Source of the DNA: Gemmatimonadales bacterium
Lineage (GTDB): Bacteria > Gemmatimonadota > Gemmatimonadetes > Gemmatimonadales > Gemmatimonadaceae
Assembly (NCBI GenBank): GCA_044449085.1
Contig: JBIOHR010000001.1
Span: 1,134-65,133 of the forward strand
Direction: 5' to 3'
DNA length: 64,000 bases
Part shown: positions 26,656 through 44,547 of the stretch, in pieces
Position numbering within the stretch: position 1 is the stretch's first letter
How the letters are laid out: each line of letters starts with the position of its first letter
Program-made: the position numbers and the translations under genes
The notes under the pieces: model-generated
Seen by the model: only the letters and a program-made list of their open reading frames with translations
Told to the model about the DNA's origin: nothing
Database searches by the model: none

Positions 26656-26715
26656 AGGCGGCTGAGTTTAGACCCTGCGTGATAGGGTGTCAAGCAAGTT
26701 CAAGCCACTTTGCCA

Positions 26716-30685: not shown

Positions 30686-31151
30686 GTTCGCCTCCGCGCA
30701 CCGAGCGCACCTTTACCTGCCCCGTGAAGACGTCGAACGACACCGTCCGCCCGCTCTCCCCGCCAACGTCCTCGGCCAGCACCGGCACGCGCGCTGCCGC
30801 GAGCGCCGTGCGCGCGGCGGCGACGTTCCGGGCGCCCACCGATCCGCCGAACGCAAGCAGCGGCCCGAAGAGCGCGGCGCCGCCCACGAGCGCACCGGTC
30901 CACGGGCCCGCCGCGCCGAGTTCGCGCATCTCCTCGAGGAGCAGCGGCACGGCGCTCGAGGCGTAGCGCGCACGGTTCTCCACGGCGCGTCCGAGCGCGG
31001 CGTCGGGGAGCAGCACGTGCGCGAGTCCGCCGACTTTGGCGACGCGATCGTGGATCGTGATCGCCACGCAGGAGCCGAGGCCGATCGTCACGATCCGCGA
31101 GTGCCCCTTGGCGACCGCATGGTGTGCGATGCGCACGCGCAGCTCCGTCAC
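30675..31151 (-). CDS. cheD: chemoreceptor glutamine deamidase CheD
   Basis: 158 aa. The GTG start overlaps the cheR stop (GTGA). IVTIGLGSCVAITIHD..KVGGLAHVLLP is the CheD Cys/His active-site block. Confidence 0.9.
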   Translation of the reverse strand: MTELRVRIAHHAVAKGHSRIVTIGLGSCVAITIHDRVAKVGGLAHVLLPDAALGRAVENRARYASSAVPLLLEEMRELGAAGPWTGALVGGAALFGPLLAFGGSVGARNVAAARTALAAARVPVLAEDVGGESGRTVSFDVFTGQVKVRSVRGGERDL

Positions 31152-31975
31152 GGGCGCCGAAAGATGCGCTGCCGCGAGTCCACCGCGTCGAACAGCTTGC
31201 GCGACGGTCCCAGCAGGGTCTCGACTTTCCCGAGCACCAGATAGCCGCCCGGCGCGAGTGCGTCATGGAAGCGCCGCATGAGCGCGTCCTGCGACTCGCG
31301 GTCGAAATAGATGATCACGTTCCGGCAGGTGATCAAGTGCATCGCGTGCGGTGGCGGTGCCTCGAGCAGGAGGTCGCGGCGCTCGAACCGGATCAGCGAC
31401 CGGATCTCCGCGCCCGCCCGCCATTTTCCGGCGCCCGCCGGGACGAACCAGCGCTCGCGCAGCGCCGGCGGCGTCTCGGTGAACGACTCCGCGCCATAGG
31501 TCCCCGCCTCGGCCGCAGAGAGGCTGTCCCGGTCGATGTCGCTCGCCGTCACATGCACCCGCGACGCCGCGCCCGGCGTGCCGGCGCCGCCGCCCGCGGA
31601 TTCCATCCAGAGCGCCGCGAGCGTGTACGCCTCCTCGCCGGAGGCGCAGCCGGCGACCCAGCAATTCAACCGCGGCGCGGCGAGCGCGCGAAGCGCGGGC
31701 AGCACGGCCGTCGCGACGGCATCCCACGCTTCCGCATTGCGGAAGAGTTTGGTCACGTTCACGGTGAGCGCCGCGATCAGCCACTCGTATTCAGCGGGAT
31801 CGCTGTCGAGGAGCCGGCTGTACGACGCATAGTCGGCCGCGCCGCGGGCGCGCATGCGCACCGCGATGCGGCGCCGCATGCAGGTGTCCTTGTAATTCGC
31901 GACGCCAAAGCCGCGGTCGCGCGAGATCTTCGACGTCAGCGCAACGAAAGCGTCGTCGCCGCCCGTGTCGCTCAC
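31148..31975 (-). CDS. cheR: chemotaxis protein methyltransferase CheR
   Basis: The GTG at 31975 overlaps the upstream stop (GTGA). MRRRIAVRMRA, TVNVTKLFRN, WVAGCASGEEAYTLA and ITCRNVIIYF motifs. 275 aa with no TPR extension. Confidence 0.92.
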   Translation of the reverse strand: MSDTGGDDAFVALTSKISRDRGFGVANYKDTCMRRRIAVRMRARGAADYASYSRLLDSDPAEYEWLIAALTVNVTKLFRNAEAWDAVATAVLPALRALAAPRLNCWVAGCASGEEAYTLAALWMESAGGGAGTPGAASRVHVTASDIDRDSLSAAEAGTYGAESFTETPPALRERWFVPAGAGKWRAGAEIRSLIRFERRDLLLEAPPPHAMHLITCRNVIIYFDRESQDALMRRFHDALAPGGYLVLGKVETLLGPSRKLFDAVDSRQRIFRRP

Positions 31976-33591
31976 GACGCCGCCCGGGCCGCCTCGATGT
32001 TCTTGCGGGCCGTCTGGTTCCCGGGATCGAGCTGCAGCGCGCGCTCCCAGCACCGCACGGCATCATCGCGCTCGTTGCGCTTGAGCCGAATGTTCCCGAG
32101 CTTGAGCCAGACGTCCGGCCCGAGCATGTCGTTGAACTTCACGGCGCGCTGGTATGCGTCGAAGGCCTCGTCGAACATGCCGACGCGGTATTGCGCGTCG
32201 CCGATGTTCTTGTGCAGCTGCGCGATGCCCGCATCTTCCGAGACGCCGCGCTCCGCGGCCGCAAGCGCGTCCTTGTCCCGTCCGGCCCGCTCGAGCACGA
32301 CCGAAAGATTGTTGTGCAGCACGGCCGCGTGCGGATACGCCGCGGTGCCCTCCTCGAGCAGGCCGATCGCCTGCTCGGACTTCCCGCCGAGCGCGTAACA
32401 CAGCGCCGCGTAGTGAAACCACGCCGGTGACGGTGCGCGCCCCGAGTACAGCGGCCGCGCCGCGACGAAACTCGCCTCCGCCGCCGGAAGGTCGCCGTCG
32501 CGCAGCGCGAGCACGCCGAGCGACGTGTGCACGCGCGCGTCGCTTTCGCCGCCGCGCTTGATCGCTTCGACCAGGGCCTCGCGCGCCTTGGCGGGCTCGC
32601 CCTTCCGCTCGAAGGCGAACGCGAGGTTGTGCAGCACCGCGGGCGCCACCGCGCGCTGGTGCGCCGTATGCTCGAAGTCCGCCACCGCCTCGTCCCAGCG
32701 CGCGAGGCGCAGGTGCACGAGGCCGAGGAAGAACCGGGCCTGCATGTCGGTGGCGCGCAGGTCCACCACGCGGCGAAACTCGCGCTCGGCTTCGTCGAGC
32801 ATGCCGGTCTTGTAGAACGCCATGCCAAGGTTGCGGTGCTCCTCGACGCGCGCGTCCGGCGCAATCACATCCGGCGCGCGCGACTTTCCCACGCGATGCA
32901 GGAACCCGGCGGTGGAAAGCCCGTACAGCGCCTTGCCGACCTGGAACTCCACGAGGCCCGAGTCCTCGATGATCGCGGTCACGTCCCGCCGGCCGTCGAT
33001 CAGCGGGAGCAGCACCTGCTGTTCGGCGGTGAGTTTCGCGCCGCTCTCCTCGAGACGCTTGATGTCAATGTCGAAGACGATGTCGAACGATGGAATCTTC
33101 TTCTCGATGAGGCTCCACTCGTCCACCCGGCGCGCGCCCTCCAGCAACAGCGACTCCGGGTTGATCATCACGAGGAAGTCCTGCTCCTCTGGGCGGATGT
33201 CGCCCTCGAAGTTGAACGTCCCCTGCGTCCACGTGAACAGGAAGTAGACGGCCTCCTCGATTTGCAGCCGGATCTGGCTGTGCAGGTCCTCGCGCGAGAT
33301 GATGCGGAGGCCGACGAGGATTTCGCCGAGGCGCTTGTCGCGCTGTTTCTCCTGCGCGTCGATCGCCTCCTGCAGCTGTGACGGAGTGATCGCGCCGCTC
33401 TTGAGCAGGATGTCACCGAGGCGGTCGCGCCGGTTGACGATCGCCGCGTAACAGATGCGCCCCTTGTCGAAGTAGATCGAGCCGAAGTTGTTCCGGTGCG
33501 TGACCGACAGGCAGCCGGTTTTCTTCCCCATCGCGAGGAGCTGGAGCACGTCGGGGAGGCTCGCCTCCTTGAGGCTTCCCTTGATTGCCAT
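31972..33591 (-). CDS. PATAN/DUF4388 domain protein with C-terminal TPR repeats
   Basis: 539 aa. The N-terminus MAIKGSLKEASLPDVLQLLAMGKKTGCLSVT...GSIYFDKGRICYA...AVYFLFTWTQGTFNFE is the DUF4388 (PatA N-terminal type) signature with a helical insertion. The C-terminal half holds about 8 TPR units. Confidence 0.85.
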   Translation of the reverse strand: MAIKGSLKEASLPDVLQLLAMGKKTGCLSVTHRNNFGSIYFDKGRICYAAIVNRRDRLGDILLKSGAITPSQLQEAIDAQEKQRDKRLGEILVGLRIISREDLHSQIRLQIEEAVYFLFTWTQGTFNFEGDIRPEEQDFLVMINPESLLLEGARRVDEWSLIEKKIPSFDIVFDIDIKRLEESGAKLTAEQQVLLPLIDGRRDVTAIIEDSGLVEFQVGKALYGLSTAGFLHRVGKSRAPDVIAPDARVEEHRNLGMAFYKTGMLDEAEREFRRVVDLRATDMQARFFLGLVHLRLARWDEAVADFEHTAHQRAVAPAVLHNLAFAFERKGEPAKAREALVEAIKRGGESDARVHTSLGVLALRDGDLPAAEASFVAARPLYSGRAPSPAWFHYAALCYALGGKSEQAIGLLEEGTAAYPHAAVLHNNLSVVLERAGRDKDALAAAERGVSEDAGIAQLHKNIGDAQYRVGMFDEAFDAYQRAVKFNDMLGPDVWLKLGNIRLKRNERDDAVRCWERALQLDPGNQTARKNIEAARAAS

Positions 33592-35501
33592 CAGCGGAAA
33601 TCCTCAATCACGCGCGCGCCGACCTCGGGCCAGTCCCACACGATCTTCTCGGCGTCCATGAATGCGGGGTCGCGCTCGTCGTGGCGGCGCGCCGCCACGG
33701 GCACGCCCGCGTACGGGGTCGCGACGCCGAGTTCACTGCGCACGAGGGCCGCGTCGAGCGCCGTGCCCGCCGCATGCGCCACGGCGCCGAGCCGGTTCAC
33801 GATCCCGATAATTTCGCGCACGCTTTGCACCGGCTGCTGGCCGAGCAGGGTGAGCAGGTGCGCATCGGGCTCGCGCCCCGAGGCCACGAGGAACCGGGCG
33901 AAGAGCTTCTCGCGGAGGGTGCGATCCGGCGCCTGGATCTGCACCACGAGGCCGCCTTCGAAGCGCGAGCGCAGGCGAACCTCGAGGTCGGGGATCGCCG
34001 CGGGCGGCTGATCGCTCGTGAGCACCACCTGCTTCCCCGCCCCGACGATCTCGTTGAACAGGAGGAACAGCTCCTCCTGCGTCCGCTCCTTGTCCGCGAC
34101 GAACTGCACGTCGTCGATCATCAGCGCATCCACCGACCGGTAGCGCGCGCGCCAGCGCTCGACCGTCCCGCCCTGAATCGAGGCGATCAGCTCGTCGATG
34201 AACTGCTGCGCGTGCACGCACGCCACCACGAGCCTCGACCCGGGGGCCTGCACGAGCGCGTTGCCGATCGCGTGCAGGAGGTGCGTTTTCCCGACGCCGC
34301 TCACGCCGTGGATCAGCAGCGGGTTGTACTTCGCGCCCGGCGCCGCGATCACCGCGTCTGCGGCGTGCACGGCGAGCTGGTTCGACGTGCCGATTTCGTA
34401 CGCCTCGCGCGTGAACGCCGCGCTCGGCCCGGATGGCGGCGTCTCGCCGGCGAGTGCACGCTCCACGAGGTCTTCCGCGGCCGCCATCCGTTCCGGATCG
34501 CGAAACACGGGGTCGCTGCCGAGGGCGAGATCCACCTCGACCGCCGCGCGCTCGAGGTCGCGCAGGTGTTCGACGGCGGCGGTGAAGGTCGCGAGCAAGC
34601 CTGCGACGTCCGGCGCCTTCCGCAGCGTGAGCGCGCGCTCGAGCACCGCCGTGCGGTACCCTTCCCCGTTCCAGTACGCGATCGCCTCGCGGAGGCGCGC
34701 CTGCCACGACTCCACCTGCTGCTGCACCACCGTCGACACTTCGGAGAGGAAGCTCTCGAACTCGCCAGTCGGGCGGTCTGCCGGCGTCGGCCGCGCCGGC
34801 GTGCGCCGCGCCACGGCCTCCGCGGCTTCCTCCTCGGCGCTCAGCGACTTGGCGGCGACGAGGCGGTTGAGCGCGCCCTGCAGCGCGCGGACGTTGTTGA
34901 AATTGAATCGCGCGAGCTCCTCGAGCACGCCGGTCTTGAACTCGAGATGCCGCTCCTCGCAGTTCGCGCGCAGGATCGCCACGCGTGTTTCGTAGTCCGG
35001 AGCCGTGACGTCGACGATCAGTCCGCCCGAAAGGCGGCTGATCAGCCGTTCGTCAACGTCCGGAATTTCCGTGGGCGGGCGGTCGCTGGTGAGCATGACC
35101 TGGCCGCCCGCGGCCTGCATGCGCTCGAACAGCCGGAGGAACTCGGCCTGCGTTTCGCGGCGGCCCGTGAGAAATTGCACGTCGTCGATCAGCAGCAGCC
35201 CCACCCGCTCGTAGCGGCGCGAGAACGCGTCCATCTGCCCCGCCGACACGGAGGCATGCAGCTGCTCGACGAACTCGTCGAGCGACAGGTACTCCACCTC
35301 GAGCTGCGGCTGGAGCGCGGCCGCGAGGTGCCCGACCGCGGAGAGCAGGTGCGTCTTGCCAAGGCCGGTGCCGCCGTAGACGAACAGCGGGTTGTACACC
35401 GCGCCGGGCGACTCCGCCACGGCGCGCGCGGCCGCGACCGCCAGGCGGTTGCCTGTGCCGACGACGAGACTGTCGAACCGGAGGCGCGGGTCGAGCTGCA
35501 C
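33591..35501 (-). CDS. tandem DnaA-type AAA+ ATPase (two DnaA domain-III modules; no domain I/II, no domain IV)
   Basis: 636 aa, GTG start 2 nt after the mglA stop. Module 1 (aa 1-217): LDPRLRFDSLVVGTGNRLAVAAARAVAESPGAVYNPLFVYGGTGLGKTHLL, LLLIDDVQFL, VMLTSDRPP, DERLISRLSGGLIVDV.APDYETRVAIL, NVRALQGALNRL. Module 2 (aa 363-590): FTREAYEIGTSNQLAVHAA..PGAKYNPLLIHGVSGVGKTHLL, ALMIDDVQFV, VVLTSDQPP, EVRLRSRFEGGLVVQI.APD, SVREIIGIVNRL. These are the DnaA Walker A, Walker B, sensor 1, box VII and sensor 2 blocks, each present twice. No helix-turn-helix DnaA-box-binding C-terminus. Confidence 0.85.
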   Translation of the reverse strand: MQLDPRLRFDSLVVGTGNRLAVAAARAVAESPGAVYNPLFVYGGTGLGKTHLLSAVGHLAAALQPQLEVEYLSLDEFVEQLHASVSAGQMDAFSRRYERVGLLLIDDVQFLTGRRETQAEFLRLFERMQAAGGQVMLTSDRPPTEIPDVDERLISRLSGGLIVDVTAPDYETRVAILRANCEERHLEFKTGVLEELARFNFNNVRALQGALNRLVAAKSLSAEEEAAEAVARRTPARPTPADRPTGEFESFLSEVSTVVQQQVESWQARLREAIAYWNGEGYRTAVLERALTLRKAPDVAGLLATFTAAVEHLRDLERAAVEVDLALGSDPVFRDPERMAAAEDLVERALAGETPPSGPSAAFTREAYEIGTSNQLAVHAADAVIAAPGAKYNPLLIHGVSGVGKTHLLHAIGNALVQAPGSRLVVACVHAQQFIDELIASIQGGTVERWRARYRSVDALMIDDVQFVADKERTQEELFLLFNEIVGAGKQVVLTSDQPPAAIPDLEVRLRSRFEGGLVVQIQAPDRTLREKLFARFLVASGREPDAHLLTLLGQQPVQSVREIIGIVNRLGAVAHAAGTALDAALVRSELGVATPYAGVPVAARRHDERDPAFMDAEKIVWDWPEVGARVIEDFR

Positions 35502-35503
35502 GC

Positions 35504-36103
35504 TCAGACACCCCCGCCCGCGCTCAGTTTGCGAAGCACCTGCTCGCTCACCGCGCGGAGCGTCTCGAACACGCCCGGCCCGTGCAGCGCGTCGGCCCCG
35601 AAGGACGGAACGCCCCGGAAGTTGAGCTGCTCCTCGAGTTCTGCCTCGGGGAGAATGAGGTCCGCAGGGAGGTCCCGCTTGTTGTACTGGATGACGAGCG
35701 GCACGGTGCGCGTGTCCACGCCGTACTCGGCGAGGTTCGCGTGCAGGTCTTGCATCGATTCGACGTTCTCGTCGAGTTGCCTGGCCTGGCTGTCTGCCAC
35801 GAACACCACCCCATCGGCCCCCTGCAGCACAAGGCGGCGCGTCGTCTGGTAATACACCTGGCCTGGCACCGTGTAGAGCTGGAAGCGCGTCGTGAAGCCC
35901 GAGATGATCCCGAGGTCGAGCGGAAGGAAATCAAAGAAGAGCGTGCGGTCGGTCTGCGTCGCGAGCGACACCATCTGGCCTTTTCGGTCGCCCGGAACCT
36001 GGCCGTAAATGTAATGGAGGTTCGTCGTCTTCCCCGACCGGCCGGGCCCGTAGTAGACGATCTTGCAGGTAATCTCACGCGCCGCGTAGTTGACGAGGGA
36101 CAT
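35504..36103 (-). CDS. mglA: Ras-like polarity GTPase MglA
   Basis: The track ORF is over-extended to 36628. The ATG at 36103 gives MSLVNYAAREITCKIVYYGPGRSGKTTNLHYIY...TDRTLFFDFLPL...FQLYTVPGQVYY...VVFVADSQ...VIQYNKRDL. This is near-colinear with Myxococcus MglA as I recall it (P-loop, switch-I Arg, PGQ switch II, NKRD). 199 aa. Confidence 0.92.
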   Translation of the reverse strand: MSLVNYAAREITCKIVYYGPGRSGKTTNLHYIYGQVPGDRKGQMVSLATQTDRTLFFDFLPLDLGIISGFTTRFQLYTVPGQVYYQTTRRLVLQGADGVVFVADSQARQLDENVESMQDLHANLAEYGVDTRTVPLVIQYNKRDLPADLILPEAELEEQLNFRGVPSFGADALHGPGVFETLRAVSEQVLRKLSAGGGV

Positions 36104-36573
36104 CAGGCGCGCCCGAACATCACGGCGAGGTTTCGGTTGAGTTCGCGCTCGAAGTCGTCTCCGAGCGCGGCGGACACCGGTGTGGTCGCGGGCACGATCG
36201 TCGCGACGTTCGCACAGAACTCGGCGAAGTACAGCTGCACGAGGCCGAGCGAACTCTCGTCGTCGAACACCGCGAGCAGGATCAGCGAACCGGCCGCCGT
36301 CGGCACCCGTCCGAGAAATATCTGCCGGATCTTGCCGGCGTAGTGGAGCCCGGCGAACGGCTTCCCGTTCACCTGGCGCCCGAGCTCCGCGGACGAGGCG
36401 GTGGTCGCCGCGGCCAGGGCGCACGCGGTCATCACGTCGACAGACCGCGCGAACCCGAATTGCCCCAGCACCTGGCCGCTCGGGTTGAGCAGCACCGCAA
36501 GCTGTACGCGCGCCTCGTCCACGAATTGCTTCAGCGGCGCCTCGACCCAGTTTTCCGCGACCGAAAGTTTCAT
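36103..36573 (-). CDS. mglB: Roadblock/LC7 protein, MglB-like GAP partner
   Basis: The ATG at 36573 overlaps the upstream stop (ATGA). 156 aa. LAVLLNPSGQVLGQFG...LILLAVFDDESSLGLVQLYFAEF matches the MglB block VVLVVIFDNRTSLGLVRLRIKK. It sits immediately upstream of mglA, as in the mglBA operon. Confidence 0.85.
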   Translation of the reverse strand: MKLSVAENWVEAPLKQFVDEARVQLAVLLNPSGQVLGQFGFARSVDVMTACALAAATTASSAELGRQVNGKPFAGLHYAGKIRQIFLGRVPTAAGSLILLAVFDDESSLGLVQLYFAEFCANVATIVPATTPVSAALGDDFERELNRNLAVMFGRA

Positions 36574-36917
36574 GCGATCGACTCCAGCGCCTTGAGCAGC
36601 TCGACGCGCAGCAGCCCCACATTCGCACGCGGCTCCGCCACGACGACGATCACGAGGTCGTCGCGGCCCGCCGCGCACATGCGCCCGCCCTCCGCGTCGA
36701 GCTCGAAGAAACCCGTCGAGCCGAATCCGGCTGCGCCCGCCGCGCGGCGGGCCTTCCGGTACAGCGACGCGGTCAGGGCGGCGAACGCGTCGCCGTTCAC
36801 GCCGATCTGCAGGCTCGAGTCGACGATCATGCCGTCCGCTTCACCCACCACCATACAGCCCGTCACGCCGCGGTGGCGGATGAGCGACGCCAGCAGCGTA
36901 CTGAACGGGCTGGTCAT
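36570..36917 (-). CDS. Roadblock/LC7 domain protein (MglB/MglC paralogue)
   Basis: The ATG at 36917 overlaps the upstream stop (ATGA). 115 aa. VTGCMVVGEADGMIVDSSL...AAGRDDLVIVVVAEPRANVGLLRVEL follows the single-domain Roadblock pattern. Confidence 0.8.
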   Translation of the reverse strand: MTSPFSTLLASLIRHRGVTGCMVVGEADGMIVDSSLQIGVNGDAFAALTASLYRKARRAAGAAGFGSTGFFELDAEGGRMCAAGRDDLVIVVVAEPRANVGLLRVELLKALESIA

Positions 36918-37726
36918 GCGCGCCACCCCATCCATTCGTTGGCGCGATCGAGCGACCGCTCCAGCAGGCGCCGCACGTACCCGAGAGGGACGCTGCGCGG
37001 CGCGGCCACGAGGAGCACGCCTCCGCCGCCCGGGGCCATGGCGACGCTCGCCATGTCCGCCTCGAAGACAATCTGGCGCCAGCGGCCCAGCCCGAGATGG
37101 CGCATGGCGCGGTTGGCCTCGTCGCTCACGCCCGAGAGCTGCGCACCGATGTCCGCGCCGAGGTCGCGTCCGTCTTCCGTGCGGTACTCGCCGGCCACGA
37201 CGTAGCCATCGGCGTCGAGCAGGATCGCCGTCTGCGCGGCGTCGCCGAGCACGTCGTGGAACAGCGTGCGCGCGTCGACCATGCGTGCGGGCTCGGTCGG
37301 CGCCTCCTCGATCGGCCTGCCGTCGGCCTGCGACGCGCGCACCGTGTCGAGTGCCGCCGAGAGCGACTGATCGGCCGGGTCCGCGGCGAGCGCGGCACCA
37401 AGATAGCGCGCGGCCTCGTCGAGATCGCCCTGCTGGAAGCACAGAAAACCCAGCCCCTTCTGCGCGCCCCCGTGTCCCGGCGCCAGCGCGAGGACCGATT
37501 CCCATTCATCGCGGGCGCGCGCGAAATCGCCGCGGTCGATCGCGATGCGCGCGACGAGGTCGTGCGCGTCCGCGCGCTGCGCATGCCGCTCCAGTCCCCG
37601 GGTCGCGACGCGCCACGCAAGTTCGAGCTGACCAAGCCGCCGGAGCGCCTCGCCCAGCTGCACGAACACGATGCTCGACGGATCCGCGGCGAGCGTCTCG
37701 CTGAGCGTGCGGATGTCGTCACTCAT
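36914..37726 (-). CDS. TPR + Roadblock/LC7 fusion protein
   Basis: The ATG at 37726 overlaps the upstream stop (ATGA). 270 aa. The N-terminal 130 aa or so are TPR-like (GDFARARDEWESVLALAPGH, GDLDEAARYLGAALAADPAD). The C-terminal part, AILLDADGYVVAGEY...IVFEADMASVAMAPGGGGVLLVAAPRSVPLGYV, is Roadblock-type. Confidence 0.8.
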   Translation of the reverse strand: MSDDIRTLSETLAADPSSIVFVQLGEALRRLGQLELAWRVATRGLERHAQRADAHDLVARIAIDRGDFARARDEWESVLALAPGHGGAQKGLGFLCFQQGDLDEAARYLGAALAADPADQSLSAALDTVRASQADGRPIEEAPTEPARMVDARTLFHDVLGDAAQTAILLDADGYVVAGEYRTEDGRDLGADIGAQLSGVSDEANRAMRHLGLGRWRQIVFEADMASVAMAPGGGGVLLVAAPRSVPLGYVRRLLERSLDRANEWMGWRA

Positions 37727-38796
37727 GCGGGTGCGCCTCCACCGGGCCTGCGCGGGAGTGCGTTTGCGCCGCCCTGCGCTGGGTACCTCGCCTCGACGAG
37801 CGCGCGGAGCCTCGCCGCGGACTCGAGGCCGTCGCGCACGCGTCCGGTCATGTCGTGCCGCGGATGCGCCTGCAGCCACGTGGCCCATGACCCCACCGCG
37901 CTCTGGAAGTCACCGCGGAGCACGTACTGGAACCCGCGCTCGAGGTCGTCGGCACCGTCGGCGACCGGCGGCGGCGGGACGGCGAGCGGTGCGACCACCG
38001 GCGTCGGCACGTCGGCCACCGCGCGCGTGCCGATCGGCGGCGTTGGCGCACGCGCGGCGACCCGCTCGGCCACCGAAGGCGGAACCACGAGCTCCACCAC
38101 GCCCGTGCTCACGAGACCGTACACGACCTTCGCCGTGTCGAACTCCGTGCGCGCGAGCTGCGATGCGATCGCGCGCAGGTCGAGCGAGCCGTCGATCATC
38201 GTGAGCACCTCCCACTCACTCGGCAGGAGGTCGAGCATCGGCGCGTGCTGGTCGTCCTTCAGCGACGCGAGGCGGGGGATGGCGAGAAGGCTCGGCACGC
38301 GGTCGGAGATGCGCGACCACTCGTCGATGCGGCGCGCGCCCTCCATGAGCAGCGCCTCGGTGCCGATCTGCACCATCGGGTCGCCGTCCATCGCGCCTTC
38401 CTCAAAACGGAAGAAACCCTCGCGCCACGACAGCAGTTCGAAGATGACCGCCTCGATCTGGAGGCGCACCTGGCGCTCGAGTTCCTTTTGCGAGATCGCG
38501 CCCATCTCGAGCAGGATCTCACCGAGGCGGCGGCTGTCGCCGCGTTCCTTCTGCGCGGCGCTCGCCGCCGCCACCTGGGCGGCGGTGACGCGGCCTGTCC
38601 GCATCAGGAGATCGCCGAGGCGGTGCGGATTGCTCCGGATCGCCGCCGCTACGACCCTGCCATTCTGGAAGTGGACCGTCCCCTCGTTGTCGCGCAGCTC
38701 GGAGGTGACGGCAAGCGTTCCCGTCTTCCGGCTCAGGTCGAGAAGCTGGAAGACGTCGTGGATCCCGAGTTCGCGGAGCGGCCCTTCGATCGCCAT
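37723..38796 (-). CDS. PATAN/DUF4388 domain protein
   Basis: 357 aa. MAIEGPLRELGIHDVFQLLDLSRKTGTLAVT...GTVHFQNGRVVAA...VIFELLSWREGFFRFEE is a second copy of the DUF4388 signature, with the same helical insert (RLGEILLEMGAISQKELERQ). The Pro/Ala-rich C-terminus has no TPR. Confidence 0.85.
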   Translation of the reverse strand: MAIEGPLRELGIHDVFQLLDLSRKTGTLAVTSELRDNEGTVHFQNGRVVAAAIRSNPHRLGDLLMRTGRVTAAQVAAASAAQKERGDSRRLGEILLEMGAISQKELERQVRLQIEAVIFELLSWREGFFRFEEGAMDGDPMVQIGTEALLMEGARRIDEWSRISDRVPSLLAIPRLASLKDDQHAPMLDLLPSEWEVLTMIDGSLDLRAIASQLARTEFDTAKVVYGLVSTGVVELVVPPSVAERVAARAPTPPIGTRAVADVPTPVVAPLAVPPPPVADGADDLERGFQYVLRGDFQSAVGSWATWLQAHPRHDMTGRVRDGLESAARLRALVEARYPAQGGANALPRRPGGGAPA

Positions 38797-38798
38797 GG

Positions 38799-41522
38799 TC
38801 AGTGCCCTCCGAGGCGGCTGCCGAACACCGTCAGCAGGTCTTCGGCCGACCGCATCTCGCGGCGGGCACGCCGCGCGTAGTCACCCGCCGGCTCGAGTTC
38901 GATGACGCGGTGCCACCGCGCGATCGCCTCGCGATAGCGCTTCTGCGCGGCGAGGATGGCGCCGTCGTAGAACGTCGCGCCTGCGTGGTCGGGATCGAAC
39001 GCGAGCACGCGACGGAACGCCCTCGCGGCATCCGCGGGCCGGCTGAGCTCGATGAGCGTCTCGCCGAGCGCGATGTGTCCGTCAAAGTTGTAGGAGTCCC
39101 GCTGCAGCAGGTCGACGAGCAGGCTCACCGCCTCGCGCTGCTGGCCCGTGAGGCGGCGCAGCGTCGCGAGCTCGAGCGTCGCCTCCGCGTACGTCGGCAC
39201 CGCGTCGAGCGCGGCGACGAGTTCCTGCTCCGCTTCGCGCCACAGATGGCGCTGCATCAGGAGGCGCGCCAGATCGAAGCGCACGGCGGCGAAATCGGCG
39301 TCGAGCGCGAGCGCGTCGCGGTACGCGCGAATCGCGCCGTCGACGTCCCCGAGCGACCGCGTGATGTTGCCGGTCCAGCGGAGCACGTCCGCGCGCTCCG
39401 GCGCGAGCGCGCGCGCCGCGTCGAGGGCTTCGAGGGCCGCCGCGGGATCACCGGCCTCGAACCGGCACGTCGCCACGAGCATCAGCGCGTCGACGTCGTT
39501 CGGCACGGCAATGAGCACCTGCTCGGCGATCTCGCGCGCTTCCGCACCGCGGCCGAGGAGGAGCAGCGTCTGCGCCTCGCCGCGCCGCGCCCGCAGGTGC
39601 CACGGGTTCGCCGCGAGCGCCGCACGGTACTTCTCGAGTGCATCGCCGAACGCGCCCTGCCGGCACAGGATGTCGCCGAGCAGCGCGTTCCCCTCCGCCT
39701 CGTCGGCGCCCCGCAGGATGGCCCGGCTCGCCTCCGCCATCGCGCGGTCGTAGAGGCCCGTCGAGAGGTAATCGGCGGCCATCGTGAACGCGTCGGCCTC
39801 CACCATCACCGGCGGCGGCGGTTCAGGGGGCGGCGCGAGCTCGCTGAACAGCGATTCGAGCAGCCTCGGGTCGAACGTGAAGCTCTCGACTTCGCCGCTC
39901 GTGCGCTGCTCGCCGCCGAGGTCCGGCACGACCGAGAGGTCGGGGTCTTCGTACTCGAGGTCGATGGCCAGCGCGAATTTCTGCGGCACGTAATAGGGGT
40001 CGATCTCGAGCGCGCGCTTCGTTTCGCGCAGCGCGCCTTCGTGGTCCCCCAGGTTCGAGAGCGTGAAGCTCAGGTTGTAGTGCGCCTCGGCAAAGCGCGG
40101 CCGCGCCTGGATCGCGCGCGCGAAGCTGTTTCGCGCCTCCTCGAACTTGCGCAATTCCCCGAGCACGAGGCCGACGCCGTTCCAGGCGAGCGGGCTCTCC
40201 GGCTCCGTGACGAGCACCTGCTTGTACGCCTCGAGCGCGAGCTGGAAGCGGCGGCTCTTGGTGAGCAGCAACCCGAGGTTCAGCCGCGCCTTCACGAAGC
40301 CGGCGTTCGCTCCGAGGGCGTCGCGGAAGGCGTCCACGGCACGCTCGCGTTCGCCCGCGTGGTACAGTGCGACGCCGAGATTGTTGTGCGCAATCGCATA
40401 CAGCGGATCGGCCTCGAGCGAGCGGCGGTAGTTCTCCGCCGCCTCGGTGAAGCGGCCATCCTGGTGCTCCGCCACGCCGCGCTCGTTCCAGAGCTTCGGG
40501 CTGTCCGGCGTCTCGCGCAGGAGGCTGTCGTAGAGCGCGATGGCGGCCGCGGGATCCTTGCGCAGAATGTGCACTTCCGCCATCGCCTGCAGCACGAGCG
40601 CGCGGTCCTCGCCGCGCTCGAGCGCGAGTTGGTACTCGCGCTGCGCCTCCGAGTAGTACCCTTTCTGCCGGAACGCGAGGCCGAGGTTGTAGTGCGCGAG
40701 CTGGCCGCCCTCCGCCACCTGCATCATGCGCGCGGAACGCCGTTCATGCGGGCCCGGCGCGAGCTCGGCGTACTTCTCCGGGTTGTACTGGTCGAGCGAG
40801 AGGTTCGCCTGCGCGCGCGACAGCGTCGGGTTGAGGTGCACCGCGCGCTTGCTCGCCGCGGCCGCGTCCTCGTGGCGCCCCATGTCGCCGTAGACGAAGC
40901 TCAGCAGGAAAAGGGCGTCGGGGTTCTCGGGGTTCAGCTCGATCGCGCGCTTGAGCGCGTCGAGTGCCTCCTCCATGCGCCCCTGGTTGTAGAGAACTTC
41001 GCCGAGATAGAAGCGCGTGACCGAGCTGGCGGAATCGAGCCGGATGGCCTCTTCGAACCAGTGCTGAGCGGCCCCGAGGTTGCCGCCGGCCTTCTCCGCG
41101 AGACCGAGCTGCACGACGGCACCCAAATCGTTGGGATGATGCCGCAGCAGCGCCGTGAACTCCGCCACCGCGTCCTCGGACTGGCCGAGCAGCGCGTACG
41201 CGCGGCCGAGTTCCCAGCGTGCGTCGCGATCGTCCACGCGAAAGCGCAGCTTCTCGCGCAGTTCCGCGATGCGACGGTCGTAGTACCCCGTGTTGAAGTA
41301 GGCGACTTCGAGGTTGCGCTGCGCGACCTGCATCTTGGGGTCGAGCTCGAGCGCCTTCGTGAACGCGGCGGCCGCCTCCTCGTAGAGTCCCTTGTTGTAG
41401 TAGAGGACGCCGAGGTTGTTGTGTGCGCCGGCATCGGACGGATCGATGCGCCGCGCGAACGACTTGAGCGTGTCGCGGTCGCGGTCGGAGGCGAGCGGGG
41501 CGGACACGGGATGCTCAGCCAA
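38799..41522 (-). CDS. large all-TPR scaffold protein (about 900 aa)
   Basis: 907 aa from the TTG at 41522 (8-nt overlap with cheC). The alternative GTG at 41507 lies 8 nt after the cheC stop. More than 20 recognisable TPR units (AHNNLGVLYYNKGLYEEAAAAFTKALELDP, AHYNLGLAFRQKGYYSEAQREYQLALE, and so on). Confidence 0.88.
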   Translation of the reverse strand: MAEHPVSAPLASDRDRDTLKSFARRIDPSDAGAHNNLGVLYYNKGLYEEAAAAFTKALELDPKMQVAQRNLEVAYFNTGYYDRRIAELREKLRFRVDDRDARWELGRAYALLGQSEDAVAEFTALLRHHPNDLGAVVQLGLAEKAGGNLGAAQHWFEEAIRLDSASSVTRFYLGEVLYNQGRMEEALDALKRAIELNPENPDALFLLSFVYGDMGRHEDAAAASKRAVHLNPTLSRAQANLSLDQYNPEKYAELAPGPHERRSARMMQVAEGGQLAHYNLGLAFRQKGYYSEAQREYQLALERGEDRALVLQAMAEVHILRKDPAAAIALYDSLLRETPDSPKLWNERGVAEHQDGRFTEAAENYRRSLEADPLYAIAHNNLGVALYHAGERERAVDAFRDALGANAGFVKARLNLGLLLTKSRRFQLALEAYKQVLVTEPESPLAWNGVGLVLGELRKFEEARNSFARAIQARPRFAEAHYNLSFTLSNLGDHEGALRETKRALEIDPYYVPQKFALAIDLEYEDPDLSVVPDLGGEQRTSGEVESFTFDPRLLESLFSELAPPPEPPPPVMVEADAFTMAADYLSTGLYDRAMAEASRAILRGADEAEGNALLGDILCRQGAFGDALEKYRAALAANPWHLRARRGEAQTLLLLGRGAEAREIAEQVLIAVPNDVDALMLVATCRFEAGDPAAALEALDAARALAPERADVLRWTGNITRSLGDVDGAIRAYRDALALDADFAAVRFDLARLLMQRHLWREAEQELVAALDAVPTYAEATLELATLRRLTGQQREAVSLLVDLLQRDSYNFDGHIALGETLIELSRPADAARAFRRVLAFDPDHAGATFYDGAILAAQKRYREAIARWHRVIELEPAGDYARRARREMRSAEDLLTVFGSRLGGH

Positions 41523-42129
41523 CGCGGATCGCGCGGAGCATGGCAGTCAGGCTGCCGAGGTCTGGCATCAGGAGGAAGAATCCGCGGAGCGACTCGTTGA
41601 GCTCGGTCAGGTGGAATTCCGTCTCCACGCAGAACACGTACTCCGCGCCCTGCGCCATCTCGACGAACGTCGAGCTCATGACGGCGTCCGACATGTCGAT
41701 GGCGAGTGACGGCGGCGACGGGAGGAGGATCATGCCCATGAACTCGCTGAGCGCGTTGAGGTACGCGGCGCTCAGGATGTTCCCCGCCTCGCGCAGCGCG
41801 GACTGCTCGATCTCGCCGAGCGACTCGACCGCGTCGCGCTTCATCATCAGCCCGGCCACGCGCCGCGCCGTGGCCTGCGGAAAGATGAGCAGCGCGAGGC
41901 CCGTGAGGTCGCCGAGAATCTTCATGAGCACGGCCGCCACCGGCTCCTCGTCGGACCCGACCTGGTTCGGGATGTCCTCGAGGGCGGCGATGTTGATCTG
42001 CGGCACGCTGATCATGATCGTGTGGCCCGTCATCTGCGAGAGCGCGGTCGCGGCGTGCCCCGCGCCGATGTTCGCCACCTCGCGGAGGGCATCGAGCTGG
42101 AGTGCCTTGAGTTTGCGGATGTCGTCCAC
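41515..42129 (-). CDS. cheC: CheY-P phosphatase CheC
   Basis: 204 aa, GTG start 2 nt after the cheA stop. Two CheC active-site repeats are present: DALREVANIGAGHAATAL and SALREAGNILSAAYLNAL (D/S-x3-E-x2-N). Confidence 0.88.
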   Translation of the reverse strand: MDDIRKLKALQLDALREVANIGAGHAATALSQMTGHTIMISVPQINIAALEDIPNQVGSDEEPVAAVLMKILGDLTGLALLIFPQATARRVAGLMMKRDAVESLGEIEQSALREAGNILSAAYLNALSEFMGMILLPSPPSLAIDMSDAVMSSTFVEMAQGAEYVFCVETEFHLTELNESLRGFFLLMPDLGSLTAMLRAIRVG

Positions 42130-42131
42130 CG

Positions 42132-44093
42132 TTAACTCCCCTCGAAGAGGCTGCCCACGTCCATGATCAATGCCGGCGCGCCGTCCGCGAGGATCGTCGC
42201 CCCGCTGAACAGCGCGAGCGCGTCGCGCGCCGCGTCAAACTGCTTCACGACGATGTCCTGCTGGCCGATCAGCTCGTCCACGACGAGCCCGGACCGGCGC
42301 TCGCCGCGCTCGAGCACGACGATCTCCCGGTTCGCGACGGCGGCGCCGCGCGGGGCCGGCGCCGCGGCGCCCTGCCGCACAACGTCGCGCAAGTCGAGCA
42401 GCGGCAGCACCTCGTCGCGGAGCACCAGCACCCGCTTCCCCTTCACGTGCTGGACGACGTCGTCGCCGTACTCGAGCGTCTCGCGCACGTGCGTGAGCGG
42501 CAGCGCATAGCGCTCCGTGCCCGACCGCGCGAGCAGCGCGCGCACGATCGCCAGCGTGACGGGAAGGCGGATCGTGATCGTCGTGCCCTCGCCCGGCACG
42601 CTCTTCAGCTCCACCGATCCACCGAGTGCGCGCGCCTTGGACTGCACCACGTCGATCCCCACGCCGCGCCCCGAAAGATCGGAAACCTCGTCGGCCGTCG
42701 AGAAGCCGGGCTGCGCGATCAGCCGGAATAGGGTGTCGTCGTCGACGTCGCGCGTGGCCTCGTCCACGAGCCCCGAGGCGCGCGCACGCGCCAGCACCCG
42801 CGCGCGGTCGATGCCGCGGCCGTCGTCGCTCACGCGGATGAGCACCGCCGCGCGGTCGCGCGAGGCGCTCAGCACGAGGCGGCCGGAGCGCGGCTTCCCG
42901 GCGGCGGCGCGCGCCGCGGGCGACTCGATCCCGTGGCCGATGGCGTTGCGCAGCAGGTGCACGACCGGTTCGCCGATTTCGTCGAGCAGCGAGCGGTCCA
43001 GCTCGATCTCCTTCCCCTCGACGACGAAGTTCACGTCCTTGTTCAGCTGGCGCGCCGCATCGCGCACGAGGCGCGGAAAGCGGTCGAACACCTGCCACAC
43101 CGGAACCATGCGCATCGTCATGATTTCGGTCTGCAGGTCCGATACGAGGCGTGCCGCCATCTGCATGGCCTCGTCGAGCGCGGGGTCGCCGTTCGTCGCG
43201 GTGAGCTGGAGCAGGCGGCCGCGCGTGATGACGAGCTCGCCGATGAGGTTCATCAGCGCGTCGAGACGTGCCAGGTCGATCCGCACGTGACGCGTCGGAC
43301 GCGCGGACGGCCGCGCGGACTCTCCCCCCTCCTCCACGACTTCGATGGTCGTCCGCGACACATGCCGCGTGCGCCCCGCGACGTCGACTTCCACGAACGC
43401 GATGTCGCCGGCCGAGCGCACCGCCGCCTCGATCTCGTCAACGGACGCCGTCGTCACGACACGCATCGCGAACGCGAGCGGCGCGGTCGCCGCCTGCAGC
43501 TGCTCAACCGCCGGATCCGTCGCCGCGACGTCGCCGAGCGCGCGCACGCGCTGCACAGTCATGAACGCGCGCACCCCGGGAAGCGCCGTGTCCGCGGACT
43601 GCCGGACGCGCACGATCACCCCCGGGCCGTCGAGCGGATCGGACGCGGCGATCTGCACCAGCGCACCCGCCCCGCCGGCCGGTATCGCGGGGAACTCGCT
43701 CGTCGCCGAGCCGCCCGCGACGTCGCGCAGACGCTGCAGCGCGGCGATCATCGCCGGCGTCTGCACCGCGTGTTCGGACGCCGCGTCGATCGCGCTCTCG
43801 AGTGCGTCCGCCGACGCGAACAGCGCGTCCATGAGGTCGGGCGCCAGCAGCTGGTCCCCGCGACGCACGCGGTCGAGCACCGACTCGAGCTCGTGCGCGA
43901 ATTCCGCGACGGCATGGTACCCCATCGTCGCGCTCATGCCCTTCACGGTGTGCACGGCGCGGAACACGACGCTCACCGGCTCCACCGGATCCGTGCCCTC
44001 CTCGAGCGAGAGCAGCGCGCGATTGATCGCGGTGAGCTGCTCGCGGCTCTCCGTGCGGAAAAGCTCCGCGTAGCGCGATGGGTCGAGACTCAT
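42132..44093 (-). CDS. cheA: chemotaxis histidine kinase CheA
   Basis: 653 aa. Hpt P1 (FRAVHTVKGMSATMG), dimerisation P3 (RIDLARLDALMNLIGELVI), HATPase (HLLRNAIGHGIE, DDGRGID, GRGVGIDVV) and the C-terminal CheW-like P5. Confidence 0.96.
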   Translation of the reverse strand: MSLDPSRYAELFRTESREQLTAINRALLSLEEGTDPVEPVSVVFRAVHTVKGMSATMGYHAVAEFAHELESVLDRVRRGDQLLAPDLMDALFASADALESAIDAASEHAVQTPAMIAALQRLRDVAGGSATSEFPAIPAGGAGALVQIAASDPLDGPGVIVRVRQSADTALPGVRAFMTVQRVRALGDVAATDPAVEQLQAATAPLAFAMRVVTTASVDEIEAAVRSAGDIAFVEVDVAGRTRHVSRTTIEVVEEGGESARPSARPTRHVRIDLARLDALMNLIGELVITRGRLLQLTATNGDPALDEAMQMAARLVSDLQTEIMTMRMVPVWQVFDRFPRLVRDAARQLNKDVNFVVEGKEIELDRSLLDEIGEPVVHLLRNAIGHGIESPAARAAAGKPRSGRLVLSASRDRAAVLIRVSDDGRGIDRARVLARARASGLVDEATRDVDDDTLFRLIAQPGFSTADEVSDLSGRGVGIDVVQSKARALGGSVELKSVPGEGTTITIRLPVTLAIVRALLARSGTERYALPLTHVRETLEYGDDVVQHVKGKRVLVLRDEVLPLLDLRDVVRQGAAAPAPRGAAVANREIVVLERGERRSGLVVDELIGQQDIVVKQFDAARDALALFSGATILADGAPALIMDVGSLFEGS

Positions 44094-44141
44094 CGTCTGC
44101 GTCCGTTACGTCGGTGACACGTTCGGCGGGCGGCCGCGCGC

Positions 44142-44504: not shown

Positions 44505-44547
44505 CGTACCCTCGCACAGAAAGAGTGATCGCGTGCCGCAACGCCGC

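What the first reader, a model, noticed from the sequence alone, without database searches (positions are those of the whole stretch)
35504..37726. mglBA core expanded to four consecutive partner genes: three Roadblock/LC7 proteins, one fused to TPR
Seen in the sequence:
- Upstream of a highly canonical MglA (P-loop GPGRSGKTT, switch-I TDRTLFFDF, switch-II TVPGQ, NKRD) lie three Roadblock-fold genes chained by 4-nt ATGA overlaps.
- They are an MglB-like 156-aa protein, a minimal 115-aa Roadblock and a 270-aa TPR-Roadblock fusion.

Established knowledge: MglB acts as a dimeric Roadblock GAP for MglA. Roadblock paralogues such as MglC modulate polarity in Myxococcus.

Inference: three different Roadblock proteins made in fixed ratio with one GTPase suggests hetero-oligomeric GAP, GEF or adaptor complexes. 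The TPR fusion could tether them to the TPR and PATAN scaffolds of the operon.
Basis: partly seen in the sequence, partly recalled or inferred. Interest (0 to 1): 0.62.

Follow-up and report, generated by a model that had tools for sequence, protein, structure and literature searches.

The report
Three-Roadblock cassette beside MglA GTPase
In soil bacteria of the class Gemmatimonadetes, the Ras-like cell-polarity switch MglA is encoded next to three different Roadblock-fold helper proteins (an MglB, a minimal Roadblock and a TPR-Roadblock fusion) that are inherited and lost as one block; this is an undescribed elaboration of a known bacterial polarity module.

Summary
On the minus strand, 35504-37726 encodes a TPR-Roadblock fusion (270 aa), a minimal Roadblock (115 aa), an MglB orthologue (156 aa) and a canonical group-1 MglA (199 aa). 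The first three genes are joined by ATGA overlaps. MglB and MglA share one base (TGATG), not ATGA.

The genes lie inside a 17-gene chemosensory, PATAN, TPR and DnaA-like operon. Gene order is collinear in 34 loci from several orders of the class Gemmatimonadetes. The three Roadblock genes are all-or-none: five clusters lack all three, including the Gemmatimonas-type cluster, and none keeps one or two.

The three proteins are distinct lineages:
- The 156-aa protein matches only MglB structures and has a conserved C-terminal helix.
- The 115-aa protein is a generic Roadblock with the Asp-Gly pair.
- The fusion's Roadblock domain is a sister of the 115-aa protein, but carries the Asp-x-x-Gly signature of MglA-coupled MglBs.

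My best reading is that MglB is the GAP. The other two would be non-catalytic adaptors, analogous to MglC, that tie MglB and MglA to the TPR and PATAN scaffolds. No interaction could be tested here.

Published tables list at most two MglB genes per group-1 MglA. I rate this a new variant of a known kind, of moderate interest.

The parts
36914..37726 (-). TPR-Roadblock fusion, 270 aa. The TPR helices cover residues 2-134 (about 37325-37723). A disordered linker covers residues 137-146. The Roadblock domain covers about residues 150-269 (36917-37279).
   Evidence: Pfam gives several TPR families plus Robl_LC7 at 26.6 bits against a cut-off of 23. The AlphaFold model has pLDDT 89.7, with eight helices, a linker, then an alpha-beta-beta-alpha-beta-beta-beta-alpha domain. 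The Roadblock-domain profile hits Roadblock and MglB structures (7f8m 3e-5; T. thermophilus MglB 9.5e-5). Invariant D171-x-x-G174 aligns with D36/G39 of M. xanthus MglB. The family has 371 clusters at 50% identity, and every named member is from Gemmatimonadota.
36570..36917 (-). Minimal Roadblock/LC7 protein, 115 aa, with a near-invariant Asp28-Gly29 pair.
   Evidence: Pfam Robl_LC7 scores 28.1 bits against a cut-off of 23. The family profile hits archaeal Roadblock proteins first (7f8f 3e-12, 7f8m, 7yh1, 9jue). It then hits dynein Roadblock, CvnB5, MglB (1.6e-4) and LAMTOR2. hhalign to the fusion's Roadblock domain gives probability 90%, E = 1.5e-6.
36103..36573 (-). MglB orthologue, 156 aa: a Roadblock core plus a conserved C-terminal amphipathic helix (residues 141-152).
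   Evidence: It has no Pfam hit. The family profile hits only MglB structures (M. xanthus 4e-16, T. thermophilus 1e-10). The AlphaFold model has pLDDT 84 and pTM 0.79. Foldseek ranks 1-29 are all MglB. Invariant F141, E142, L145, L149 and F153 lie in the C-terminal helix.
35504..36103 (-). Group-1 MglA small GTPase, 199 aa. It is the only MglA homologue found in this 91%-complete genome.
   Evidence: It matches M. xanthus MglA at E = 5.5e-74 and T. thermophilus MglA at 8.8e-67. The P-loop, the Arg finger in TDRT, TVPGQ and NKRD are all present. The genome holds a single copy.
37723..38796 (-). Context: PATAN (DUF4388) protein, 357 aa. Its stop codon overlaps the start of the TPR-Roadblock gene (ATGA).
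   Evidence: Pfam DUF4388 at 3.9e-34. NCBIfam MshE-related c-di-GMP-binding motif NF053729 at 40.1 bits against a cut-off of 38.
38799..41522 (-). Context: 907-aa all-TPR protein.
   Evidence: Pfam TPR families. Its position is conserved in all loci.
33591..35501 (-). Context: double DnaA-type AAA+ protein, 636 aa, starting 2 nt after the mglA stop codon.
   Evidence: Pfam Bac_DnaA matches twice, E = 2.1e-105.
31972..33591 (-). Context: PATAN-TPR protein, 539 aa.
   Evidence: Pfam DUF4388 plus TPR.
41515..45030 (-). Context: upstream half of the chemosensory operon, made up of CheW, CheY, CheA and CheC/CheX.
   Evidence: Pfam hits.
27720..32053 (-). Context: downstream half of the operon, made up of CheR, CheD, CheB, CheW-type genes and a 287-aa TPR protein.
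   Evidence: Pfam hits.

Best explanation
The locus is the regulatory core of a chemosensory-driven MglA polarity module that is conserved across the class Gemmatimonadetes.

Shown:
- MglA is a canonical group-1 GTPase with its own arginine finger.
- The 156-aa protein is its MglB orthologue, with a Roadblock core and a conserved C-terminal helix.
- The 115-aa protein and the C-terminal domain of the 270-aa protein are two further Roadblock lineages, sisters of each other.
- The three Roadblock genes are start-stop overlapped, and they are kept or lost as one block.

Inferred:
- An MglB homodimer acts as the GAP for MglA-GTP, and perhaps as an exchange helper through its C-terminal helix.
- The 115-aa Roadblock and the TPR-Roadblock fusion are non-catalytic adaptors, either as homodimers or as a heterodimer.
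- They would stack on the MglB dimer Roadblock-to-Roadblock, as MglC does in Myxococcus xanthus.
- The TPR arm would link the GAP complex to the operon's TPR and PATAN scaffolds, and so to the CheA-CheY output.
- Chemosensory signalling could then reposition or switch MglA activity at a cell pole. The likely output is type IV pili, because the genome has four PilT-family ATPases.
For: Identity of the parts:
- MglA: E = 5.5e-74 to 5ymx.
- MglB: the family profile hits only MglB structures, and Foldseek ranks 1-29 are all MglB.
- Roadblock assignments: both other proteins exceed the Pfam cut-off, and their profiles hit Roadblock and MglB structures in the PDB.
- Sister relation of the two extra Roadblocks: hhalign probability 90%. 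Each is far from MglB.

Evidence that they form a functional unit:
- Gene order is collinear in 11 Gemmatimonadaceae loci, in 16 loci from three families of the order and in 6 loci from other orders.
- All three genes are absent together from five reduced clusters. Three of these keep the rest of the operon apart from CheR.
- The Roadblock-Roadblock junctions overlap in 19/22 and 22/22 loci, whereas MglB/MglA overlaps in 1/22.
- Each family has its own invariant residues, so all three are under purifying selection.
- Exploratory residual rate correlations: TPR-Roadblock with MglB 0.44, with the 907-aa TPR protein 0.46, with PATAN 0.39.

Precedent from the literature:
- In group-1 systems with two coupled MglB genes, one belongs to the MglC-type clade (PMC4719450).

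Genome context: four PilT-family genes, five MCP genes elsewhere and flagellin genes.
Against: - No interaction, stoichiometry or activity was tested.
- The 115-aa family does not match the MglC structures in the PDB, even at E <= 1. It shows no residual rate correlation with MglB or with the fusion.
- The M. xanthus interface residues are not conserved. MglB R115 of the KRK patch is mostly Gln here.
- The GAP-relevant Asn-37 is Ser or Ala here, and the Arg-98 position is variable. Even the GAP role of this MglB is therefore inferred from homology.
- The conserved Asp of group-1 coupled MglBs sits in the TPR-Roadblock fusion, not in the MglB orthologue. This could mean the fusion contacts MglA directly.
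- Reduced clusters keep MglA, PATAN, TPR and the DnaA-like gene without any Roadblock gene. The operon can therefore work, or be retained, without the cassette. Those genomes do carry a second MglB-MglA pair.
Confidence: 0.5

Rival explanations
1. Each of the three Roadblock proteins is a separate homodimeric regulator that binds MglA directly. For example, MglB could be the GAP, while the TPR-Roadblock fusion is a scaffold-anchored second GAP or an exchange platform (Ragulator-like), and the 115-aa protein is a competitor or inhibitor.
For: - The TPR-Roadblock fusion, not the MglB orthologue, carries the invariant Asp-x-x-Gly signature typical of MglBs coupled to group-1 MglA (PMC4316618 section 15).
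- The Asp-Gly pair of the 115-aa protein is the residue pair conserved in MglBs of MglA groups 2-5. That Asp is predicted to lie within 5 A of MglA.
- Roadblock dimers serve as GTPase platforms in many systems (PMC10329633 discussion).
Against: - Both extra families are only remotely similar to MglB. The 115-aa family scores E = 1.6e-4. The fusion's Roadblock domain scores 9.5e-5 against T. thermophilus MglB and 0.02 against M. xanthus MglB. The true orthologue scores 4e-16.
- Neither has the C-terminal helix that binds MglA in M. xanthus MglB.
- In M. xanthus the second Roadblock paralogue, MglC, does not bind MglA (PMC4719450).
Confidence: 0.22
2. The two extra Roadblock proteins regulate or scaffold a different operon component rather than the MglA/MglB pair. 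Candidates are the double DnaA-type AAA+ ATPase and the CheA-CheY pathway. This follows the general idea that Roadblock/LC7 proteins regulate NTPases.
For: - The DnaA-like ATPase gene directly follows mglA, and its position is conserved in all complete loci.
- Roadblock proteins are proposed as general NTPase regulators (Koonin and Aravind 2000, as cited in PMC4316618).
- The 115-aa family shows no rate correlation with MglB or MglA.
Against: - The DnaA-like gene is retained in the reduced clusters that lack all three Roadblock genes, so it does not depend on them.
- The extra Roadblock genes overlap each other and mglB, not the ATPase gene.
- No Roadblock-AAA+ partnership of this kind is documented in the papers read.
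Confidence: 0.1
3. The extra Roadblock genes are redundant or decaying duplicates of mglB with no distinct role.
For: Some lineages have lost them, including the Gemmatimonas-type cluster.
Against: - Intact reading frames with family-specific invariant residues are kept across several orders, at about 33-45% identity.
- The three families are too divergent from one another to be recent duplicates.
- Loss is all-or-none rather than piecemeal.
Confidence: 0.03

Closest known systems
Myxococcus xanthus polarity module: MglA, MglB and MglC, with RomR/RomX, RomY and the Frz chemosensory system
   Same: - A group-1 MglA with an intrinsic Arg finger and TVPGQ.
- An MglB Roadblock partner with a C-terminal helix.
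- Additional Roadblock paralogue(s).
- Control by a Che-type pathway.
   Different: - Here all parts sit in one operon. In M. xanthus mglC, romR and frz are unlinked.
- There are two extra Roadblock proteins rather than one, and one is fused to TPR repeats.
- The 115-aa protein does not match the MglC structures by sequence.
- The MglC-FDI / MglB-KRK interface residues are not conserved.
- I did not search for RomR, RomX or RomY.
- PATAN, TPR and a double DnaA-like ATPase take the neighbouring positions.
Group-1 MglA systems coupled to two MglB-family genes, often with PATAN neighbours (Wuichet and Sogaard-Andersen 2014, Table S2; McLoon et al. 2016). Examples are Chloroflexus, Herpetosiphon, Chloroherpeton and Sphaerobacter.
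   Same: - One MglA with more than one adjacent Roadblock gene.
- One of these genes is a true MglB and the other is divergent.
- PATAN proteins are encoded nearby.
   Different: - All published group-1 rows show at most two coupled MglB genes.
- No TPR fusion and no embedding in a che operon is tabled.
- The only Gemmatimonadota genome analysed there, G. aurantiaca, has the reduced cluster without Roadblock genes (GAU_1409, 'PATAN>MglA>-PATAN').
Eukaryotic Ragulator-Rag and archaeal or Asgard Roadblock proteins
   Same: - Several different Roadblock-fold proteins are associated with one small-GTPase system.
- The 115-aa family is closest in sequence to archaeal Roadblock proteins (7f8f, 7f8m, 7yh1, 9jue) and to dynein Roadblock.
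   Different: - Ragulator uses obligate Roadblock heterodimers stacked under Rag GTPases, which carry their own Roadblock domains.
- No heterodimer is shown here.
- MglA has no Roadblock domain.
Actinobacterial conservons (CvnA-D)
   Same: An operon that couples an MglA-family GTPase, a Roadblock protein (CvnB) and a kinase-type sensor.
   Different: - Conservons use a group-2 MglA without an Arg finger.
- They have one Roadblock protein, a DUF742 protein and a membrane histidine kinase.
- They have no Che pathway, PATAN protein or TPR fusion.

Membership tests
MglA family, group 1 (Wuichet and Sogaard-Andersen 2014) | P-loop GxxxxGK[ST], an intrinsic arginine next to the G2 threonine, G3 motif TVPGQ and G4 motif [NT]KxD | tested here: met
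   GPGRSGKT, TDRT, TVPGQ and NKRD are in the translation. E = 5.5e-74 to M. xanthus MglA.
MglA family, group 1 | [quoted passage not shown] | tested here: met
   The mglB stop codon and the mglA start codon share one base.
MglB (GAP of group-1 MglA) | Roadblock/LC7 fold with closest similarity to characterised MglB proteins | tested here: met
   The 156-aa family profile hits only MglB in the PDB (4e-16 and 1e-10). The AlphaFold model has pLDDT 84. Foldseek ranks 1-29 are MglB with TM 0.73-0.88. It has no Pfam Robl_LC7 hit. In the published set, 5 of 63 MglB BLAST hits likewise matched no Pfam domain.
MglB (GAP of group-1 MglA) | C-terminal helix beyond the Roadblock core (the MglA-binding, exchange-active helix of M. 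xanthus MglB) | tested here: met
   A helix is predicted at residues 141-152. F141, E142, L145, L149 and F153 are invariant in 23 orthologues. Its function is not tested.
MglB (GAP of group-1 MglA) | Conserved Asp three residues before the invariant Gly (D36/G39 of M. xanthus MglB) | tested here: not met
   The 156-aa family has Asn, His, Thr, Glu or Leu at that position, while G33 is invariant. The signature is instead invariant in the TPR-Roadblock fusion (D171/G174).
MglB (GAP of group-1 MglA) | GAP-relevant Asn-37 and Arg-98 (PMC11016934) | tested here: inconclusive
   The Asn-37 position is mostly Ser or Ala, with occasional Thr, Val or Asn. The Arg-98 position lies in a variable loop, where many orthologues have Arg nearby but the window protein has Ser.
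MglB (GAP of group-1 MglA) | Stimulates GTP hydrolysis by MglA | not testable with these tools
   A biochemical assay is needed.
Roadblock/LC7 (Pfam PF03259) | Score above the Pfam gathering threshold of 23 bits | tested here: met
   The 115-aa protein scores 28.1 bits and the 270-aa protein 26.6 bits. The 156-aa protein does not reach the threshold, but belongs to the superfamily through MglB.
MglC / MglB_orphan1 clade (McLoon et al. 2016) | Asp directly before the invariant Gly, within the F25-D26-G27-I28 surface | tested here: inconclusive
   The 115-aa family has near-invariant D28-G29 followed by Met, Leu or Ile, but the Phe position is not conserved. The Asp-Gly pair is also typical of MglBs of MglA groups 2-5, so it is not specific to MglC.
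MglC / MglB_orphan1 clade | Detectable sequence relationship to M. xanthus MglC | tested here: not met
   No MglC chain (7CY1, named in PMC10329633) appears among the PDB hits of the 115-aa family profile, even at E <= 1, nor among those of the fusion's Roadblock domain.
MglC / MglB_orphan1 clade | Binds MglB (and RomR) but not MglA, and has no GAP activity | not testable with these tools
   Protein interaction assays or multimer prediction are needed.
TPR repeat proteins | Tandem helix-turn-helix repeats matching the TPR profiles | tested here: met
   TPR_19 scores 45.3 bits and TPR_2 43.5 bits. The model has eight helices in residues 2-134. Foldseek hits to consensus TPR proteins have rmsd 1.4-2.1 A.

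The most novel reading that the evidence does not exclude
The 115-aa Roadblock and the Roadblock domain of the TPR fusion form an obligate heterodimer. This heterodimer would stack on the MglB homodimer to give a multi-layered Roadblock platform under MglA, a bacterial counterpart of the Ragulator-Rag arrangement. The TPR arm would dock directly onto the operon's CheY~P-responsive TPR and PATAN scaffold. In that case a chemosensory phosphorelay would be physically hard-wired to a small-GTPase GAP complex.
Probability: 0.2. Interest if true: 0.75.

Novelty: new variant of a known kind. Interest (0 to 1): 0.48.

Why it matters
How chemosensory signalling reaches the MglA polarity switch is still unresolved in Myxococcus, where the parts are scattered over the genome. 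Here the GTPase, its MglB, two further Roadblock proteins, the candidate scaffolds and the Che pathway lie in one conserved operon. The interaction map could therefore be worked out with a handful of recombinant proteins.

Nature also supplies controls, because related genomes carry the same operon with the whole Roadblock cassette deleted. If the extra Roadblocks form a layered or heterodimeric platform, the Ragulator-like principle of Roadblock stacks read by a GTPase would extend to bacteria beyond Myxococcus.

The finding also shows that the one Gemmatimonadota genome used in the reference survey of prokaryotic small GTPases is atypical for its class.

Tried and rejected
- **Pfam and NCBIfam on the 156-aa protein.** There was no Pfam hit, and only a weak NCBIfam MglB hit (17 bits against a cut-off of 200). 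I replaced these with PDB profile and fold searches.
- **Foldseek on the whole TPR-Roadblock model.** The list was filled by TPR hits and gave no ranking for the Roadblock domain.
- **MglC membership of the 115-aa protein.** It stays an analogy only.
- **Residue-level transfer of M. xanthus interfaces** (MglC FDI, MglB KRK, MglB Asn-37/Arg-98). These residues are not conserved here, so they neither support nor exclude the model.
- **hhalign of the 115-aa family against the M. xanthus MglB fragment.** It placed Asp28 opposite the invariant Gly, one residue out of register. I did not use it for residue mapping.
- **Mirror-tree rate correlation**. The adaptation enzymes CheR and CheB correlate (0.41), which serves as a sanity check. 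With 20 related taxa and no significance test, I treat the result as a hint only.
- **Terminator and promoter scan** of 26500-46000. It found no more sites than the shuffled controls.
- **Taxonomic reach beyond the phylum.** The named members I sampled were all Gemmatimonadota. An earlier scan note says the operon also occurs in other candidate phyla. I had no genome handle there and did not test it.
- **The look-up of encoding contigs on a distant representative**. It returned a frameshift-ridden long-read contig with the same cluster and gave no new information.
Full report
**What is there.** All genes lie on the minus strand:
- 36914-37726 encodes a 270-aa protein.
- 36570-36917 encodes a 115-aa protein.
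- 36103-36573 encodes a 156-aa protein.
- 35504-36103 encodes a 199-aa GTPase.

The junctions PATAN/270-aa, 270-aa/115-aa and 115-aa/156-aa are ATGA overlaps.

**The GTPase.** It is a textbook group-1 MglA, with GPGRSGKT, TDRT (the intrinsic arginine), TVPGQ and NKRD. It matches M. xanthus MglA at E = 5.5e-74 and T. thermophilus MglA at 8.8e-67. It is the only MglA homologue in this genome, a 3.6-Mb assembly that is 91% complete.

**Fold assignments.**
- Pfam Robl_LC7 exceeds its 23-bit cut-off for the 115-aa protein (28.1 bits) and for residues 164-240 of the 270-aa protein (26.6 bits). The N-terminal half of the 270-aa protein gives several TPR hits.
- The AlphaFold model of the 270-aa protein has pLDDT 89.7. 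It shows eight helices (residues 2-134), a disordered linker (137-146) and an alpha-beta-beta-alpha-beta-beta-beta-alpha domain (157-269).
- The 156-aa 'MglB-like' protein has no Pfam hit. Alone it hits M. xanthus MglB in the PDB at 2.7e-6.
- As a 23-sequence family profile it hits only MglB: M. xanthus at 4e-16 and T. thermophilus at 1e-10.
- Its model has pLDDT 84 and pTM 0.79, and includes a C-terminal helix at residues 141-152. Foldseek ranks 1-29 are all MglB structures.
- That C-terminal helix contains five of the sixteen invariant residues of the family. This fits the MglA-binding C-terminal helix described for M. xanthus MglB (PMC11016934).

**Three different Roadblock lineages.**
- The 115-aa family profile hits archaeal Roadblock proteins first (7f8f at 3e-12, then 7f8m, 7yh1 and 9jue). 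It then hits dynein Roadblock, CvnB5, MglB (1.6e-4) and LAMTOR2. No MglC chain appears.
- The Roadblock domain of the fusion hits 7f8m (3e-5), 9jue and T. thermophilus MglB (9.5e-5).
- By hhalign, the fusion's Roadblock domain and the 115-aa family are related (probability 90%, E = 1.5e-6).
- Both are remote from the MglB orthologue (probability 16% and 0.5%).

**Signature residues.**
- The literature defines two signatures around the invariant glycine. MglBs coupled to group-1 MglA have an Asp three residues before it (D36/G39). The MglC-type clade and MglBs of groups 2-5 have Asp directly before it (PMC4719450; PMC4316618).
- The 115-aa family has a near-invariant D28-G29.
- The fusion has an invariant D171-x-x-G174, which hhalign places on D36/G39 of M. 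xanthus MglB.
- The MglB orthologue has neither: Asn, His or Thr sits at the first position, and Ser or Ala at the second.
- The GAP-relevant Asn-37 and Arg-98 of M. xanthus MglB are not strictly kept either.
- Arg115 of the MglB patch that contacts MglC is mostly Gln here.
- Residue-level transfer of the Myxococcus interfaces is therefore not possible.

**Context and conservation.** The four genes sit inside one long co-directional gene string. Its order is: CheW, CheY, CheA, CheC/CheX, a 907-aa TPR protein, PATAN, the four genes, a double DnaA-type AAA+ protein, PATAN-TPR, CheR, CheD, CheB, CheW-type genes and a 287-aa TPR protein.
- Related loci carry titles naming Gemmatimonadaceae or Gemmatimonadetes metagenome-assembled genomes.
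- The whole order is collinear in 11 such loci.
- It is also collinear in 16 loci from three families of the same order, and in 6 loci from other orders of the class.
- At order level, identity is about 82-88% for CheY and 73-79% for MglA, but only about 40-45% for each Roadblock protein.
- In a sample of 301 genomes of the phylum, the fusion is found at E <= 1e-15 in 180 genomes and in 76 of 126 genera.
- A profile of its Roadblock domain finds only 371 clusters at 50% identity among 1.84 billion representatives.
- Every named member I sampled is from Gemmatimonadales or Gemmatimonadaceae.
- JGI already labels these proteins 'predicted regulator of Ras-like GTPase activity (Roadblock/LC7/MglB family)'.

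**The cassette behaves as a unit.**
- Among 22 loci with clean gene calls, the fusion/115-aa junction overlaps in 19 and the 115-aa/MglB junction in all 22.
- The MglB/MglA junction overlaps in only one, with a median gap of 5.5 nt and a maximum of 109 nt.
- Thirty-four loci carry all three Roadblock genes. In one of them the 115-aa gene was too divergent for tblastn but is visible as a 122-aa ORF.
- Five loci carry none, and no locus carries one or two.
- Three of the five are otherwise complete operons that also lack CheR.
- One of these lies in a single-contig genome of 4,636,964 bp. Its arrangement matches the published entry GAU_1409, 'PATAN>MglA>-PATAN', for Gemmatimonas aurantiaca.
- Those genomes also have a separate MglB-MglA pair.
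- An exploratory rate-correlation analysis removed the shared phylogenetic signal. It gives residual correlations of the fusion with MglB (0.44), the 907-aa TPR protein (0.46) and PATAN (0.39). It gives none for the 115-aa protein. This analysis has no significance test and is only a hint.

**Most likely mechanism.**
- Shown: a canonical MglA with its MglB orthologue, plus two further, mutually related Roadblock proteins. The three Roadblock genes are co-inherited and probably translationally coupled.
- Inferred: MglB is the GAP, with a possible exchange role for its C-terminal helix. The two extra Roadblocks are non-catalytic adaptors that bind MglB Roadblock-to-Roadblock.
- Inferred: the TPR arm anchors the complex to the TPR and PATAN proteins of the operon.
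- The likely output is a polar machine. The genome has four PilT-family ATPases above the family cut-off, as well as flagellin genes, and its five MCP genes lie outside the operon.
- Main rival: the extra Roadblocks contact MglA directly. The coupled-MglB signature in the fusion keeps that reading alive.

**Comparison with what is known.**
- MglA coupled to two MglB-family genes, the MglC-type paralogue and PATAN neighbours are all published (PMC4316618; PMC4719450).
- In the published table, no group-1 row has more than two coupled MglB genes. No TPR fusion or che embedding is listed there.
- The only Gemmatimonadota genome in that table carries the reduced cluster.
- A full-text search for Gemmatimonad* together with MglA returns only that survey.
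- I therefore class the cassette as a new variant of a known kind.
- Earlier notes of this scan report the same triple in other Gemmatimonadota genomes. One checked note says the operon also occurs in another candidate phylum. I did not test the out-of-phylum claim.

**Limits.** No multimer prediction, interaction data or activity data were available.

Noticed in passing
window 37723-38796 (-): The 357-aa PATAN/DUF4388 protein just upstream matches the NCBIfam MshE-related c-di-GMP-binding motif NF053729 at residues 59-108 (40.1 bits, cut-off 38). It may therefore bring c-di-GMP input into the module.
   Followed up: no
window 33591-35501 (-): A 636-aa protein is made of two DnaA-type AAA+ modules (Pfam Bac_DnaA matches twice). 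It starts 2 nt after the mglA stop codon. It is kept in clusters that have lost all the Roadblock genes.
   Followed up: partly
G000:C5, locus L001 1016-1815 (-): A fourth Roadblock gene lies elsewhere in the genome. It encodes 130 aa, scores 34 bits on Pfam and has an 'RDGLLI' Asp-Gly motif. It sits directly upstream of a single-domain response-regulator gene, so it may be an orphan MglC-like plus receiver pair.
   Followed up: no
L050 (G096:C1:1682800-1702700), L057, L055: The Gemmatimonas-type operons and one other genus keep CheW through PATAN and MglA through CheB. They lack all three Roadblock genes and also CheR. Their PATAN gene runs almost up to mglA.
   Followed up: partly
L054 (G141:C3:449500-469400): In one genome the region from CheW through MglB is deleted, so that rluD is followed directly by mglA. 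Only a remnant of the DnaA-like gene is left.
   Followed up: no
window 26500-46000 and whole genome: The operon has CheA, CheY, CheW genes, CheR, CheB, CheD and CheC/CheX, but no receptor gene. Five MCP genes lie on other contigs (C49 twice, C63, C3, C29).
   Followed up: partly
L027 7001-8197; L041 8677-9531: In two long-read metagenome assemblies, neighbouring Roadblock genes read as one fused frame (398 aa and 284 aa). These are most likely indel errors rather than real fusions.
   Followed up: no
same-genus genomes G024, G229, G005, G015: Some genomes of the same genus lack the whole che-MglA cluster. They carry only the other MglA type (about 229-aa frames, 60-64% identity). The window's genome has only the cluster type. 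The two MglA systems are therefore distributed variably, even within a genus.
   Followed up: partly
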